From Styela clava (taxonomy: Eukaryota): a stretch of 64,000 nucleotides of DNA. Position numbers: made by a program. Numbering within the stretch: the first letter of the stretch is position 1; each line of letters starts with the position of its first letter. This document shows, piece after piece, positions 3,001-9,000 of the stretch. The stretch spans positions 9,796,001 to 9,860,000 of the forward strand of contig NC_135258.1 of assembly GCF_964204865.1 (NCBI RefSeq), read 5' to 3'.

Positions 3001-6000
3001 ACCAGTAATTCTTTGACCAGACAACTTAACTGAATATGCAGCCAGGCCAAGCGAATACGCGAATCGGTCATGTTCATCTTAACTTATATTCTATTCACCG
3101 GAAGCATAAATAAGTGTAGGTGCTGAAATGGTGTAACTAATTAATGTGTAACTTTTACGTAGTGTAAAATAAGTGTCCATCTCATAATGATACGATTGTA
3201 CAATAAGTTAACGATTTTTCAATTTAATTTGATTATGTAATTGTACCCGGAGTAAATTTTCATTAATAATGTTATTGAATCATCCAAAATTAAATTTATA
3301 TTCATTAGACCAAAATACAAATAGGCTGTTGATTGTCTTAGATTGGATAGTTGAATAGCAGTATAACGTACTGTAAAGCACATCTAAACCTACCGCTGTA
3401 AGAGCAAAACAACATGAACAAATTGGTGTTTGTTAGGCAGTTTGCGATCACGTATCAGTACGATAAAGAAGATAAATATATAAAAACAAGCGCGTATAAC
3501 ACGTCACAGGTGATATTGAATTATATGCAATTTACGTATTATTGTACTTATTGTTACACACCCAGAGGGTCATGACGATAGCAAAGTCGTTATTTGATAT
3601 TTTCGCTTTCAGTAATCCATTATATATTATGTTCGTAAATTTTGGCGAGTTAATAATTTGTGAAGATATTAAACTTTTCGTGAGTGCGCCCACAATTTAA
3701 AATTATTTCATTCGAAGCAGCATACGAATCGAGCAGCTCCAACAACTTAATAAATAGCAAGGAGAGGGAACAATGCCCAAAGGCAGTACCAAAGTTACAG
3801 TACAATACGTAAACATGAAAAAATTATCTATATTGTATTAGTATAAAAGAAAAATTCCACCAATTGAACAGTCATATCACACTGAGTAATCGTGTTCTAT
3901 AATTTCACACACATAGTAGAAATAAAAGAAGAAAATTGAAAATAAAAATTATTAATATGTACAAAATTAGAACAATAAAAAGAATTTCATACTTCAATGG
4001 ATAGATAAAAACCAATAGTATTGCCTATGCATTACTTTTAATTTGTGGAAGATGGCGGCTAATCAGCACCAAAGATTTATGTCCTGTTTTATAGAATCTT
4101 CATTTAAGATCGTGGTTATGCGAAGCGTCCAAAAAGAAAAGACCTTTTAATAAAAGGCAATATATATACAAAATTCAACTATTCTATTTCCTCTTTTTCT
4201 CAGGTATTGCAATACAAGTATGAAAATACCGTCTAACAATGTATAATTGTCTTTGCCAAGTAGAAAAAATAGTTAGAACTTTTGATTATCATTGAAGTTC
4301 GATTCGAGTTTTTTGGCAATTTTCAACCTACTACATATTCGATTCGTTTGTAGAGTTACTTGCTCCCTTTGAGTTTCTGTTTACGGCACCATAAACATCA
4401 GCTGGTTCGTGGGATCCATTCAAATTACCGTTTGTACTGCAATAATCAGAAAGTTTTTACTCCAGTTTAATTAGATTAGCAAAATGTAGTCTATGTAACT
4501 TCAAATTCTACAATTGAAAATTCTATGTTTTTTTGAATTAAGCTAGTTTTTAAACATATTTTTCTTTGTAGCAGTGCGTAGTTGTAAAACTTGTTTACAT
4601 TTTAATTGGAACTACCGAAGGCCACCACCCGACTTAACACGTTAGAATTGTTCCTTTACCGCCACCTACTGTGAGTTAACTTACCTATGATGCCCATTTT
4701 GATAAACGTTATCATTAGTTGTACTTGAATTAATAAGAACTGGAGTTTCCAATCTTTCTCTTCTCTGAAAATAAGTGAACCAACTATCACACTGCTGAAG
4801 CTTTTTGACAGATAGAATTCAATAATTGATCGTCATATTTAAAGCATATTTAAGAACAGAAGATCTATGCTCAAATATATGGACACGTGGCGCCACATAG
4901 TGGCAACTTTTGATGACGTCTAGCACAAATAAAACGAATGCCATGCAGCTCACCGGAATATTTGAAATAAAAAAAGCAATAGCCTTCTAGCGAAAAACCT
5001 AATCTTCAATCAATGAAAATTTTGAAGCAATTGTCAGGCTTGTTCATGGGACATATTTTTTGTCCCATTCCCATTCCATAGCAATTATGCCTGTCCCATC
5101 CCATCCCATGGGATTCCTATTGGAATAAAATTCAATAAAAATTGTTACATTTGGGTTTAGCGTCTACTAAATAGGACTAACAAAACAACAAATTTCATGG
5201 ACTTTGTTAACTTTATATTCATACCTATAATAAATGTGTCCATCAGCCCCTTCACGAAGTATATTGCTAATGCTGAATATATTTGGCTCTTTATAATTAA
5301 CAGAAGAGATATTCTCAAATATATGGACACGAAGTTCATCACAAAATGTTTTACCATCATTTTCCCGAAAATCATACGGTTTTCGTGTCCCATGGGATAT
5401 ACAAATGTGTGCTGTCCCATCCCATCCCATGGGGCGTTTCCCATGGACAAGCATGACAATTGGTCCAGTAATCGAAGCGAAAAGCATTTTTTTTCATAAC
5501 GATACCAAGAAGAATACAAATAAAAACAACAAGAAGAAGAGTTCCAGCATAAAATGCAAAACGATCGTTATGTCCATTAACGTGTCCAATAATTAAACTT
5601 ACCCTGCGTCTTCGTCGATGATGCAGACTACAAATCAATATGATCAGCAGAACCAAGAATATCAGGAAAAATGATGCAGCAACCACAATAAGCACAATGA
5701 CGAGGTCAACTATATAAAATGAAAAATGAAATTTGTTATTTTGTGAAACTCCGTAGATTGAAGACACTTACTGTAATAGAACTGGTGTTTTGTCGGTGAA
5801 AATAAACACAAATGCAACAGACACAGACACACGAACGTTTGGTTGACTTTACTAAAATTAAGTGTTTAGTATTCACAAGACTTCTAGTTACTGACTTTTC
5901 ATTTCAAAATAGCGATTGATTCATATGTATATATATGCAATTGAACCTTTATTCTGAATGAAGGGAAGTTTTTATTGATAATATTAACTCCATGGCGCCA

Positions 6001-9000
6001 TAAAACAATCTAATTTTGTATCTCCAACTTTTAGGAGGCTGTCGATGTCGTCAGACTTTAAATACAAGAGAGCTAAGCTCAAATATATGGACACGTCACA
6101 AGGTGTCGCTATTTTTCATTCTGACACATAAAAAACGAATCTCTTGAAGTCCACAGAAATTTTTGAAATAAGTAAAAGTGATAGCCTTCTGGCGATGAAA
6201 TTAATCTTTAACCACTGAAAATTTCAAAGCAATCAGTCAAGTATTCGAAGAGAAAAGCGATTTTATCATGACCAAGGAAAAGAATAATAATAATAACAAG
6301 AGAGCTATGCTCAAATATAGGACCACGTAGCGCCACCTAATAGCAATAATTTTGATGACGTCATAGCAAAAAAAAGCAATAGCTTTTTGAAGAAAATTTT
6401 TATCTTTAACCACTGGAAATTCAAAGCAATTGGTCCAGTAATCAAAGAGTAAAGCGACTTTTTAAAAACGTGTCAAAGAACAAGAACAACAACATAATAT
6501 TGAAACGATCGCTATGTCCACTACGTGTCCAATAATAATTAGCAGGTAGTGAAATAAACAGATTATTTAGGAATACAACTTAAGCCCCGGTAAAAGTACA
6601 AATATGTTACCTCTAGTTTCCGTCGTTCCTTGTGCTGTTGTGTTAGTAACACTAGCTGAATCTAATATCTTTGCCGAAGTTACAATATACTGATCCCGGG
6701 GCTGATTGCAAATCTACGAAAAAGTTGCTGTTTGTATTTACCATCAATCACATAAACTACCTAAGTTGCTACATTCTTTTTATGTACGAATAACGAGTAT
6801 ATTTTAAATGGAAGCTTTGAGTCGAAACGATTTCTACGATAAAATTTTATTTGTTTAGTGGTTCATACATCTGTGTTATCAAACCGACTGTTGTTTTCAA
6901 AAAGAACATTTGCCACAGTTGAGAGCCAATTTTATTGAGTCTTAGAGCAACGTATGAATTTTGAAAATCTATTTTTAATTTCTTTCTCTTTTTCTCTATA
7001 ACTAAAAACCATTAAAAATATAAATCTTACCAAAAGACATCCAATTATTCCAGGACATTTTGTTGAGATATCACACTGCAGATAGTAACTATTCACACTT
7101 TCTGGTGGCGGAAGGAGAAATTTTCCGTATAATTTGTGAACTCCTCGTGCGTAGTCAAATTCGGTGTAGTAAGCAATTTCTTGAGGGCATCTGTCCAACA
7201 TATTTGATATAGTGAATTAGTTAAATTCTAATTCCACATTAATATTTTGCTCAAAAAAGGTGTCTATTTTGTATAGTCGTCTCCAGCCAAATAGCACCAT
7301 AATATCATTGGGGATTCGATATTTAAAGCGATCGGGGGAATAATTTTCAAAACAAAATGCTGAAGTATTTTTGCAACACTTGAGGGACGATTTATTGTTT
7401 GAAAATTTTATAATTTAAAATTTAAGCTTTCCAAGTTTTGGTGCAGTTCCAGTCAAATTTCATTTCCAATGACGGAATCGAGAGCAAAATATAGATTTAT
7501 TTGCATCAAATCTAACAATAATGTTGCCTTTACGTGGTTGAACACCCTGTAAAATTAACTGATATATATTCGGCGACAAGTATCAATATTTCATTCTGAA
7601 CACCTTCTTAGTTTTAAGTGTTTTTTTTAAATAATTTTCAAAAAATATTATGTTTATAGCCAAACCTACCCTTTCTTGAGTATGTGAAATTTTTCACCGC
7701 TGCTAGGGTCTGTAGTTAACCAACAATCATACATTGCCAAAGATACACCTTGATTTGTTACAATGGCAGCAAACACCCATGAATCGCGATTTAATTCGGG
7801 ATTGAGCAGTCGTTGTGAATATGTTTGGTCCTAAATGTAATTAGTTATAATGCACGTGATATCAGTGAGGTATCATTAAATTATGAAATATTGTAGTAAA
7901 CATTTTTTAGTGTTAATAAGTAATTAAAAATCATTTCAATCGTTGTCTTTCTAAAATATATATTCAATCCGGGAAATACAAGCATTCAATAAAATTTTCA
8001 AGTGAAATTAAGTCATGGACAAGAAGATAGATCGAATAATCTTTGTTTTGACTGCTAGACAACTAAATCATATGACAAGAATATTTTATAAGAAGTCCTA
8101 ACATCCAGTTATACCCTGTATATATGAAGTGAAGCACAAATACTGGTTAACGGACTCGTTGTTGAATTTACGATTGAGCACTGAGCATTGGCGAAGTTGA
8201 GGTAGATCATGAAAATGAATCCTGCTAAAGATAACATTTATATGAATTAGCAATAGGTGAAAACACACTAATTTATCTACATGCATGTATAAGAGATATA
8301 ATTGAGATATATGGGGTGGCAGAAGCGATGATACATTGAAAAACTTCAAAAACACACCACCAATACGCATTAGTGCCAAAAATGATAGACCTCACACAAA
8401 GAATAAAGAGCACGTAATGTTATCCTTTGGGGGCTTAACCATAATGCTAGGGCAAAGATGATTCCATTATTACTTATATCTAGCTATATATTATATATTA
8501 GTTAATATTATCACTACTAAAATTACAAAGAAAATTACCTATTGAAAGATGCTGTAGTTGTTGACTCATACTGCTATATTCAGTACTCCGCTGTTTCAAT
8601 ATTATTTACAAAAAATCTGCAGTATATATATCTTGGGCAATGAACGTTAAACAAACATTTACCGATTCTTACAGCATAAAATGTGATAAAACTGTAAATA
8701 TATCTATAGTTTTAGTTGGGAAACAAAAATAGAGGGAGAGGTCTCGTACTTTGTACTAAAAATCAATTGATGAATCACTTCACTAAACTTGGATAGTTCG
8801 TATTCTTTGTTCTCGTCTAAGCATAAGCTTTTATCATAACAAGAGTCTATATCTTTATTGCTCGATTTGCCCTTATCAATTTGACTTTCCTATGAAATAT
8901 GCTATAGATATTATACGACAAACAGTCTAACCGATATTTTCATTTTTCTCGTAATAAAGCTTCTTTTTAAAATGTGTAACGTTCATAACGCGAATCTTGA

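What the first reader, a model, noticed from the sequence alone, without database searches (positions are those of the whole stretch)
4331..8569. Hidden receptor-like gene with a stand-alone ZP-C domain and a tyrosine-motif tail
Eight short exons give a clean 284-aa frame: signal peptide, ~15 residues, then directly a ZP-C-like fold, a Thr-rich stalk, TM helix, RRRRRRRER stop-transfer and a ~65-aa tail. The tail has DNVYQN (YxN, Grb2-SH2 type) and DVYGAV (YxxV, ITIM-like but non-canonical). Established: ZP modules are normally ZP-N plus ZP-C; ZP-N polymerises and occurs alone, while isolated ZP-C is unusual, and in betaglycan ZP-C binds TGF-beta-family ligands. No furin site is evident before the TM helix. 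Inference: a non-polymerising, membrane-retained ZP-C signalling or recognition receptor, possibly immune, gamete or co-receptor in role.
Basis: partly seen in the sequence, partly recalled or inferred. Interest (0 to 1): 0.72.

Follow-up and report, generated by a model that had tools for sequence, protein, structure and literature searches.

The report
Sea-squirt membrane protein with lone ZP-C domain
This is a real, already annotated but unstudied sea-squirt (Styela clava) gene for a small membrane protein whose outer part is a single ZP-C domain, the same layout as the vertebrate inhibin co-receptor TGFBR3L, so it is interesting but not unprecedented.

Summary
The eight-exon minus-strand model is real. 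All 7 introns are GT-AG and the frame is 858 nt, or 285 aa. It is 100% identical to RefSeq XP_039263885.2, "uncharacterized protein LOC120339758 isoform X1" of the tunicate Styela clava. So the gene is annotated, not hidden.

The ectodomain matches Pfam PF00100 "ZP-C domain" just above the curated cut-off (26.2 vs 24.6 bits, E 9.4e-6). Weak PDB and language-model hits agree. The fold test failed: the AlphaFold model had pLDDT 41.

No ZP-N was found, and only 16 residues separate the signal peptide from ZP-C. There is no basic cleavage site before the membrane helix.

The tyrosine motifs are at chance level, and there is no ITIM.

Lone ZP-C is already known: nematode standalone ZP-C proteins and vertebrate TGFBR3L, which has the same signal peptide-ZP-C-TM-tail layout. 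No sequence kinship to TGFBR3L or betaglycan was detected.

Best reading: a non-polymerising, membrane-held ZP-C binding protein with an unknown partner.

The parts
8539..8569 (-). Exon 1: start codon (8569-8567) and first 10 codons plus 1 base; n-region of the signal-peptide-like N-terminus
   Evidence: Donor is GT at 8538-8537. An in-frame stop lies 12 codons upstream, at 8606-8608.
8115..8224 (-). Exon 2: hydrophobic core of the signal peptide, ANA|Q site, Cys26, N30 sequon, Cys40, start of ZP-C. The alternative acceptor 3 nt downstream (exon starts at 8221) gives isoform X2
7670..7830 (-). Exon 3: ZP-C core with the D-C-W-L-T-T motif (Cys83)
   Evidence: 100% identity to P0001; aligned to the CWAT motif of ZP2 and choriogenin H
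7031..7190 (-). Exon 4: ZP-C core with G-C-P (Cys102) and the Cys140/146/152 cluster
7067..8135 (-). Genomic span of the Pfam PF00100 (ZP-C) match, residues 41-142 of P0001, across exons 2-4
   Evidence: E 9.4e-6, 26.2 bits, cut-off 24.6, profile positions 7-121 of 133. Coordinates derived.
6611..6713 (-). Exon 5: Cys156, a candidate last strand of ZP-C (EHP-like, residues ~161-170, 6666-6695; inference), and the Ser/Thr-rich stalk with the N178 sequon
   Evidence: No RxxR or dibasic site here.
5603..5709 (-). Exon 6: transmembrane helix (residues ~191-217, 5624-5704) and the first five Arg of the poly-Arg stop-transfer
   Evidence: Kyte-Doolittle 19-residue windows up to 3.44; helix 186-230, the only confident part of the model
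4685..4764 (-). Exon 7: RRER and the cytoplasmic tail with Y245-Q-N (4696-4704)
4331..4436 (-). Exon 8: cytoplasmic tail with Y266-G-A-V (4382-4393), C-terminal S-N-M, stop TAG at 4333-4331
8623..8628 (-). TATATA, 54 nt upstream of the ATG: a candidate core promoter element (inference only)
4146..4151 (-). ATTAAA, 180 nt after the stop: a candidate poly(A) signal (a second lies at 4037-4042); inference only

Best explanation
This is the Styela clava gene LOC120339758.

What it encodes:
- A 285-aa (alternatively 284-aa) type I membrane glycoprotein.
- A signal peptide, then 16 residues, then one divergent ZP-C domain that makes up the whole ectodomain.
- A short Ser/Thr-rich stalk, one transmembrane helix and a poly-Arg stop-transfer.
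- A low-complexity Asn/Ser-rich tail of about 57 residues.

Shown here: the gene model, the ZP-C profile match, the absence of a ZP-N in the protein, and the absence of a basic cleavage site between domain and membrane.

Inferred:
- It has no ZP-N and no interdomain linker, and its last ZP-C strand cannot be cut away. It therefore cannot build ZP filaments and stays on the cell surface.
- There its ZP-C domain would serve as a binding module for a partner still unknown.
- The closest working model is vertebrate TGFBR3L and the ZP-C of betaglycan, where a membrane-held ZP-C captures a ligand for other receptors.
- The tail more likely carries sorting or scaffold signals (YxxPhi, a loose C-terminal S-x-M PDZ-type ending) than phosphotyrosine signalling.
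For: Gene model:
- 7 of 7 introns are GT-AG and the frame is 858 nt.
- 8 of 8 exon translations lie in order in RefSeq XP_039263885.2.
- Two annotated isoforms differ by a NAGNAG acceptor.
- Five stored versions or paralogue sequences all keep the frame and all 9 Cys; 278 of 285 columns are invariant.

ZP-C identity:
- PF00100 scores 26.2 bits against a cut-off of 24.6, E 9.4e-6, covering residues 41-142.
- With P0001 alone, 2 of the 3 PDB sequences at E<=10 (of 177,635) are ZP-C-bearing proteins: ZP2 5bup_A and choriogenin H 8bqu_B, both E 0.056. They align on CW-T and GC motifs.
- ZP2 is again the top hit with the profile of A1.
- In the ESM Atlas feature search, 10 of the ten best family-bearing hits for residues 26-175 are ZP-C clusters, top score 0.90.

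No ZP-N:
- No other ZP-clan family appears at E<=10 in P0001.
- Only 16 residues lie between the predicted signal cleavage site and the ZP-C start.
- An in-frame stop lies 12 codons upstream of the ATG.
- 0 of 20 upstream minus-strand open stretches (8583-12166) match any ZP family.

No cleavage site: the only RxxR and the only RR/KR sites after residue 100 lie in the cytoplasmic poly-Arg.

Precedent for the architecture and mode of action: TGFBR3L has a signal peptide, a single ZP domain homologous to betaglycan ZP-C, a TM helix and a short tail, is 297 aa, and is an inhibin B co-receptor (PMC8673766, passages). A 'TGFBR3-like protein' cluster of 292 aa is rank 3 among feature look-alikes of the whole protein, score 0.89.
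Against: - The ZP-C call rests on a profile score only 1.6 bits above the cut-off and on PDB hits with E about 0.05.
- 0 of 7 exon translations matched a ZP family on their own.
- The structure test failed. The AlphaFold2 model from 5 near-identical rows has mean pLDDT 41.3 and pTM 0.24, with 237 of 285 residues below 50. Foldseek then gave 0 matches at E<=0.001.
- phmmer against 1,835,955,588 representatives found no relative of the ectodomain at E<=0.001. The 2 hits were the protein itself and a 158-aa unnamed metagenome protein that matches only the TM and low-complexity tail.
- No betaglycan or TGFBR3L sequence was recovered.
- I saw no transcript data. The signal peptide has no basic residue in its n-region and was not run through a dedicated predictor.
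- AG dinucleotides just upstream of the ATG mean an upstream exon cannot be excluded from sequence alone.
- The exon-level Pfam scan used upstream has low power: it also missed the true ZP-C exons.
- The function and the partner are pure inference.
Confidence: 0.55

Rival explanations
1. Tunicate counterpart of TGFBR3L or betaglycan. The membrane-held ZP-C binds a TGF-beta-family ligand (inhibin/activin-like) and presents it to, or withholds it from, type II receptors.
For: - It has the same layout and nearly the same size as TGFBR3L: 285 vs 297 aa, with a signal peptide, a single ZP-C-like domain, a TM helix and a short tail (PMC8673766 passages).
- Isolated betaglycan ZP-C binds TGF-beta and inhibin A (PMC11865472 passages).
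- A TGFBR3-like cluster is rank 3 of the feature look-alikes, score 0.89 with 185 of 256 shared features.
- The C-terminal S-N-M loosely fits a class I PDZ ligand. I recall that betaglycan and endoglin tails end in one; this was not checked by any search.
Against: - There is no sequence evidence of kinship. phmmer found no TGFBR3 or TGFBR3L at E<=0.001 in 1.84 billion representatives.
- No betaglycan chain appears among the 3 PDB sequences at E<=10. The ZP-type hits there are egg-coat ZP2 and choriogenin H.
- The Atlas score is below 0.9, which the tool calls a lead only.
- No ligand gene was examined.
Confidence: 0.15
2. Matrix-associated ZP-C. The domain docks onto filaments of complete ZP-module proteins (vitelline coat or another apical matrix) and tethers or caps them at the membrane. 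This would resemble C. elegans LET-653, whose ZPc alone is recruited to a membrane-anchored matrix.
For: [quoted passage not shown]
- Ascidian vitelline coats hold many ZP proteins, 11 in Ciona (PMC9265791 passages).
- The nearest PDB sequence hits are egg-coat proteins.
Against: - There is no cleavage site to free the last strand, a step needed for insertion into filaments in polymerising ZP proteins (mechanism from PMC3543715 background passage).
- No expression or localisation data were seen.
Confidence: 0.2
3. Incomplete model. The true transcript has further upstream exons with a ZP-N, and possibly other domains, so this would be an ordinary ZP-module gene.
For: - AG dinucleotides lie directly before the ATG, and the frame is open for 12 codons upstream.
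- Short exons of a divergent ZP-N would escape the exon-level Pfam scan, which also missed the true ZP-C exons.
Against: - Both RefSeq isoforms start at this ATG.
- The start is followed by a signal-peptide-like hydrophobic stretch with an A-x-A site, which would make little sense inside a protein.
- There is an in-frame stop 12 codons upstream and a TATATA 54 nt upstream.
- 0 of 20 upstream open stretches match a ZP family.
Confidence: 0.1
4. Phosphotyrosine signalling receptor. Y245-Q-N recruits a Grb2-type SH2 domain and Y266-G-A-V acts as an inhibitory motif.
For: Both motifs are present in the cytoplasmic tail.
Against: - The motifs are at chance level for this Asn-rich tail. In 20,000 shuffles YxN occurs in 32%, YxxPhi in 24% and both in 7.9%.
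- The ITIM consensus [SIVL]xYxx[ILV] is not met, because Asp sits at -2.
- The two Tyr are 21 residues apart, so this is not an ITAM.
- No orthologues are available to test conservation.
Confidence: 0.08

Closest known systems
TGFBR3L (vertebrate inhibin B co-receptor)
   Same: A type I membrane protein of about 290-300 aa with a signal peptide, one extracellular ZP-C-type domain and nothing else, a TM helix and a short tail. It is non-polymerising (PMC8673766 passages, compared).
   Different: - No detectable sequence kinship.
- The Styela tail is longer and Asn/Ser-rich.
- The ligand is unknown.
- It comes from a tunicate, not a vertebrate.
Betaglycan (TGFBR3) and endoglin
   Same: Membrane-anchored, non-polymerising ZP-domain proteins. 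Betaglycan ZP-C is itself a ligand-binding unit (PMC11865472 and PMC7456536 passages).
   Different: They carry orphan domains and a ZP-N as well. The Styela protein has only ZP-C. Their chains were not among the PDB hits at E<=10.
Nematode standalone ZP-C proteins (T01D1.8, F46G11.6, CUTL-19 subfamilies)
   Same: ZP-C without ZP-N, a signal peptide kept, and R/K cleavage sites mostly lacking (PMC7456536 passages).
   Different: The nematode proteins are truncated secreted proteins or predicted GPI-anchored proteins. Here there is a TM helix and a cytoplasmic tail. The phylum differs and no sequence link was found.
Ascidian vitelline-coat ZP proteins (CiVC57, HrVC120/VC70, HrVLP-1/-2)
   Same: Tunicate ZP-family proteins, some with a C-terminal TM domain (PMC9265791 passages).
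   Different: Those are large proteins with EGF repeats and a full ZP domain, and HrVC120 is proteolytically processed. The Styela protein is small, has only ZP-C and has no cleavage site.

Membership tests
ZP-C domain (Pfam PF00100) | Profile match at or above the curated gathering score | tested here: met
   P0001 residues 41-142 match profile positions 7-121 of 133, 26.2 bits vs cut-off 24.6, E 9.4e-6. The margin is small. 0 of 7 single exons match alone.
ZP-C domain (Pfam PF00100) | Conserved cysteine framework with C-W-x-T and G-C motifs | tested here: met
   Cys83 (DCWLTT) and Cys102 (GCP) align to the matching motifs of ZP2 (5bup_A) and choriogenin H (8bqu_B). The ectodomain has 8 Cys. 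Disulfide pairing was not tested.
ZP-C domain (Pfam PF00100) | Immunoglobulin-like beta-sandwich fold of ZP-C | tested here: inconclusive
   The AlphaFold2 model has pLDDT 41.3 and pTM 0.24. Foldseek against the PDB gave 0 matches at E<=0.001. No deeper alignment could be built, because no relatives were found.
Complete, polymerising ZP module | ZP-N domain directly upstream of ZP-C | tested here: not met
   No ZP-N family appears at E<=10 in P0001, and only 16 residues lie between the signal cleavage site and ZP-C. 0 of 20 upstream open stretches match a ZP family (low power).
Complete, polymerising ZP module | Basic (furin-type) cleavage site between ZP-C and the membrane anchor | tested here: not met
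   The only RxxR motifs are at 220-228, in the cytoplasmic poly-Arg. No dibasic site lies between residues 100 and 219.
TGFBR3L / betaglycan ZP-C co-receptors | Architecture: signal peptide, single ZP-C-type domain, TM helix, short tail | tested here: met
   compared with the description in PMC8673766.
TGFBR3L / betaglycan ZP-C co-receptors | Sequence homology to betaglycan ZP-C (about 33% identity for TGFBR3L) | tested here: not met
   No such protein at E<=0.001 among 1.84 billion representatives. No betaglycan chain among 3 PDB hits at E<=10. The only link is a feature look-alike at 0.89, rank 3.
TGFBR3L / betaglycan ZP-C co-receptors | Binding of an inhibin or TGF-beta-family ligand | not testable with these tools
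   No binding or co-structure data exist for this protein. No paper names the locus.
Nematode standalone ZP-C subfamilies | ZP-C without ZP-N, signal peptide kept, cleavage site mostly lacking | tested here: met
   compared with PMC7456536.
Nematode standalone ZP-C subfamilies | Secreted (truncated before the last strand) or GPI-anchored; common descent with those subfamilies | tested here: not met
   A TM helix at 191-217 and a 68-aa tail are present. No nematode relative was recovered.
ITIM / ITAM / pYxN tyrosine-motif receptors | Canonical motif present beyond chance and conserved | tested here: not met
   The ITIM consensus is absent, and the Tyr spacing of 21 residues is not an ITAM. YxN is expected in 32% of tail shuffles. 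Conservation is untestable because no orthologues were found.

The most novel reading that the evidence does not exclude
Membrane-anchored ZP-C-only receptors may be older than vertebrates. On this reading the Styela protein is a very divergent tunicate relative of TGFBR3L and the betaglycan ZP-C, and already works as a co-receptor for a TGF-beta-family ligand. That would place the origin of this co-receptor type before the tunicate-vertebrate split. Failing that, it is an independent, third invention of a lone ZP-C, and the first one with a transmembrane anchor and tail outside vertebrates.
Probability: 0.12. Interest if true: 0.6.

Novelty: new member of a known kind. Interest (0 to 1): 0.33.

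Why it matters
ZP-C was long thought to exist only next to ZP-N. Two exceptions are now in print: nematode standalone ZP-C proteins and vertebrate TGFBR3L.

A tunicate protein with the TGFBR3L layout, and with no detectable relatives, would add a chordate data point between them. It bears on two questions. One is how often ZP-C has been freed from the polymerisation module. The other is whether ZP-C-only co-receptors predate vertebrates.

For genome annotation, it gives a concrete architecture and a working hypothesis to a gene now labelled 'uncharacterized'. It is not a new kind of system, and its function remains untested.

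Tried and rejected
- **Exon-by-exon Pfam:** 0 of 7 exon translations hit a ZP family at E<=10. Exon 6 gave only sub-threshold TM-type matches. This shows that exon-level scans lack power here.
- **tblastn of the 7 exon translations against the window:** each found only itself. The best other hit had E 0.15, so there is no paralogue in the 64 kb.
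- **Word-based protein searches:**
  - Near length: 1 of 907 candidates passed, and it was the protein itself.
  - Longer proteins, region 26-175: 97 candidates, none at E<=10.
- **Full phmmer:** 2 hits at E<=0.001, the protein itself and P0006. P0006 is a 158-aa unnamed metagenome protein on a 1,841-nt contig. It matches only the TM helix and the Asn/Ser-rich tail. I dropped it as compositional.
- **Structure:** AlphaFold2 gave a low-confidence model. Foldseek then returned only meaningless antibody and spike-type matches at E>=0.12.
- **Frame-wide Pfam scan upstream:** the tool turned this down because of stop codons. I replaced it with 20 stop-free open stretches: 0 of 20 gave ZP hits. 10 further intronic and upstream open stretches gave no match above any cut-off.
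- **Bacterial-type promoter scan:** not informative for a eukaryote.
- **ITIM/ITAM reading of the tail:** rejected.
- **Literature:**
  - No paper holds LOC120339758, LOC120339759, XP_039263885 or XP_039263886.
  - 'Styela clava' plus 'zona pellucida' gave 1 unrelated paper, seen as a listing only.
  - Six phrasings of 'standalone/isolated ZP-C' gave 10 papers. Going by titles, abstract openings and the passages I read, the ones that concern lone ZP-C domains deal with nematodes or betaglycan, and none with tunicates.

Full report
**1. What is in the sequence**

The window has no N and about 33% G+C. Reading the minus strand of 4300-8620 gives eight exons:
- 8569-8539
- 8224-8115
- 7830-7670
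- 7190-7031
- 6713-6611
- 5709-5603
- 4764-4685
- 4436-4331

Their lengths are 31, 110, 161, 160, 103, 107, 80 and 106 nt. That totals 858 nt, or 285 codons plus TAG. 7 of 7 donors are GT, 7 of 7 acceptors are AG, and no exon has an in-frame stop. An in-frame stop lies 12 codons upstream of the ATG. A TATATA lies 54 nt upstream, and ATTAAA lies 180 and 289 nt after the stop.

**2. How I searched the spliced model**

I searched my own model exon by exon and left out the step of joining my exons for a search.
- Pfam on the seven exon translations found no ZP family at E<=10 (0 of 7). Only exon 6 gave sub-threshold transmembrane-type matches.
- tblastn of the same seven against the window found only the exons themselves.
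- Exon 3 alone, searched against longer proteins, returned one protein among 4 candidates. This was P0001, 285 aa and 100% identical, [quoted passage not shown], with PF00100 precomputed.

All whole-protein work below uses that stored RefSeq protein, not a string of my making. Each of the 8 exon translations lies in order in P0001; only the four split codons are uncovered.

I therefore take the window for Styela clava, a stolidobranch ascidian, not human.

**3. The gene is annotated, with variants**

The 90% cluster has 5 members:
- X1, in two record versions.
- X2, in two record versions, 284 aa.
- LOC120339759, 284 aa.

X2 lacks Ala11.

278 of 285 columns are invariant. The differences are one indel and six substitutions, four of them inside the ZP-C match. 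No second copy lies in the window. I cannot tell whether LOC120339759 is a neighbouring duplicate or an allelic copy from an older assembly.

**4. Domain identity**

Evidence for ZP-C:
- P0001 matches PF00100, "ZP-C domain", at residues 41-142 (profile positions 7-121 of 133). E is 9.4e-6 and the score is 26.2 bits, against a curated cut-off of 24.6. Nothing else reaches its cut-off.
- Against 177,635 distinct PDB sequences, 3 reach E<=10. These are mouse ZP2 ZP-C (5bup_A, E 0.056), choriogenin H (8bqu_B, E 0.056) and OSTM1, which matches only the TM region. The two ZP hits align on DCW-T and GC-P.
- With the profile of A1, ZP2 stays first (E 0.052). The other two hits are unrelated.
- In the ESM Atlas feature search with residues 26-175, all ten best family-bearing hits are ZP-C clusters, top score 0.90. 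The tool warns that a third of shuffled proteins also get ten of ten.

The fold test failed:
- With only five near-identical rows, AlphaFold2 gave pLDDT 41.3 and pTM 0.24.
- Foldseek then gave 0 matches at E<=0.001.

Overall, ZP-C is supported by sequence at modest strength and is unconfirmed by structure.

**5. Anatomy of the protein (unless stated)**
- The N-terminus is hydrophobic, with a peak 9-residue hydropathy of 2.4 at residues 9-17, followed by A-N-A|Q.
- Ectodomain Cys lie at 26, 40, 83, 102, 140, 146, 152 and 156. Sequons lie at N30 and N178.
- A candidate last strand sits at about 161-170 (inference).
- The stalk is T-rich, with 7 T in the 32 residues from Cys156 to the TM helix.
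- The TM helix is at about 191-217, followed by RRRRRRRER at 220-228.
- The tail is Asn/Ser-rich (12 N and 8 S of 68) and holds Tyr245 (YQN) and Tyr266 (YGAV).
- No RxxR and no dibasic site lies between residue 100 and the TM helix.

**6. Is ZP-N really absent?**

Evidence that it is absent:
- The protein has 16 residues between the predicted cleavage site and the ZP-C match, which is no room for a domain of about 100 residues.
- No ZP-N family appears at E<=10.
- Upstream on the minus strand, 0 of 20 open stretches of at least 40 codons between 8583 and 12166 match any ZP family.
- 10 further intronic or upstream stretches on both strands match nothing above a cut-off.

Limits and remaining doubt:
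- The power of these scans is low, as one search shows.
- Stronger arguments are the signal-peptide-like start, the upstream stop, and the fact that both RefSeq isoforms start here.
- I recall, from no call, that NCBI's pipeline makes alternative isoforms only with transcript support, and that tunicate mRNAs are often trans-spliced just before the ATG.
- No transcript data were available to me.

**7. Relatives**

Apart from the protein's own 90% cluster (section 3), no relative of the ectodomain was found.
- Near-length word search: 1 of 907 candidates passed, the protein itself.
- Longer proteins, region 26-175: 97 candidates, none at E<=10.
- phmmer over 1,835,955,588 representatives: 2 hits at E<=0.001. 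These were the protein itself and P0006, an unnamed 158-aa metagenome protein that matches only residues 191-279. I dropped it as compositional.

At this database size, domains with about 30% identity would fall below the threshold. Absence of hits therefore means divergent, not unique.

**8. The tail motifs**

In 20,000 composition-preserving shuffles of the 68-aa tail, YxN occurs in 32%, YxxPhi in 24%, both in 7.9%, and an ITIM consensus in 4.8%. The real tail has no ITIM, because Asp sits at -2. The motifs exist, but they carry no evidential weight without conservation data.

**9. What is known**

Papers I read:
- Weadick 2020 (PMC7456536; abstract and passages) describes standalone ZP-C proteins in nematodes. 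They keep signal peptides, mostly lack R/K cleavage sites, and are truncated-secreted or GPI-predicted.
- Cohen 2020 (PMC7665627; passages) shows that LET-653 works through its ZPc alone, and counts five ZPc-only proteins in C. elegans.
- Brule 2021 (PMC8673766; passages) describes TGFBR3L as a 297-aa type I membrane protein and inhibin B co-receptor. It has a signal peptide, a single ZP domain about 33% identical to betaglycan ZP-C, a TM domain and a short tail.
- PMC11865472 (passages) states that isolated betaglycan ZP-C binds TGF-beta and that TGFBR3L is its homologue.
- PMC9154058 (passages) cites independent ZP-C only for C. elegans.
- PMC13361971 mentions the topic only in its reference list, and has no hit for tunicate, ascidian, urochordate or Ciona.
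- In the passages I saw, ascidian egg-coat ZP proteins are large EGF-repeat proteins with a full ZP domain (PMC9265791; PMC3543715).

Literature searches:
- No paper names this locus.
- 'Styela clava' plus 'zona pellucida' gave one unrelated listing.

Whole-protein feature look-alikes include a 292-aa 'TGFBR3-like protein' cluster at rank 3, score 0.89. The tool calls that a lead only.

**10. Verdict**
ZP-C without ZP-N, membrane-retained and uncleaved, is well founded. 'Hidden', 'unusual' and 'tyrosine signalling' are not.
- The protein has the architecture of TGFBR3L but fails the sequence test for membership in that family. It most likely works as a non-polymerising, membrane-held ZP-C binding module.
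- It is a new member of a known kind, with moderate interest.

Left unchecked:
- transcripts and expression;
- supplementary files of the papers;
- the fold.

Noticed in passing
window 4851-6463 (introns 5 and 6 of the gene): A local interspersed repeat. Three co-linear direct-repeat families (56, 53 and 50 nt; 4, 3 and 3 copies; 63-80% identity) mark about four copies of one element. Its 19-nt core occurs 4 times in the 64-kb window, all inside these two introns, against 0 expected. Open stretches inside it match no Pfam family above its cut-off.
   Followed up: partly
window 8221-8226: A double acceptor (tag|cag) produces the 285-aa and 284-aa isoforms, which differ by Ala11 inside the signal peptide.
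   Followed up: yes
window 26027-28885 (-): One 953-codon open frame encodes a Glu/Arg/Lys-rich protein. It holds an array of about 47-50 copies of a 30-nt unit (26585-27962, 82% matches), which encodes E-E-A-E-R-K-R-L-type decapeptides. It has no Pfam match at E<=0.01. It explains the G+C and AT-skew spike at 26-28 kb.
   Followed up: partly
window 38636-39274 (-): An uninterrupted 213-codon frame carries the TBPIP/Hop2 winged-helix domain (E 9.1e-23) and the LZ3wCH domain (E 2.4e-15). It looks like a meiotic Hop2/PSMC3IP-like gene contained in a single exon.
   Followed up: partly
window 40935-43503: Retroelement fragments in opposite orientations. One is a partial reverse transcriptase on the minus strand: RVT_1, E 1.9e-11, with only the last part of the profile. 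The other is plus-strand frames with a zf-RVT match just under its cut-off. I only described them.
   Followed up: partly
window 44610-46743 (+): A hAT-type transposase-like gene with DUF4371 (E 1.6e-18) and the hAT dimerisation region (E 6e-10). It reads in two frames, so it has at least one frame change. By eye, a similar C-terminal piece lies at 15854-16407 (+); I did not test it.
   Followed up: partly
window 52763-62817 (+): Several exons encode immunoglobulin I-set domains, for example 52763-53119 (E 1.7e-11) and 62596-62817 (E 4.5e-5). They belong to a multi-exon Ig-domain receptor-like gene on the plus strand. The gene was not identified further.
   Followed up: no
P0001 versus P0003, P0004, P0005: Record versions and the paralogue LOC120339759 differ at six substituted positions, four of them inside the ZP-C match. 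All cysteines and both tail tyrosines are kept. There are too few sequences, and no DNA, for a selection test.
   Followed up: partly
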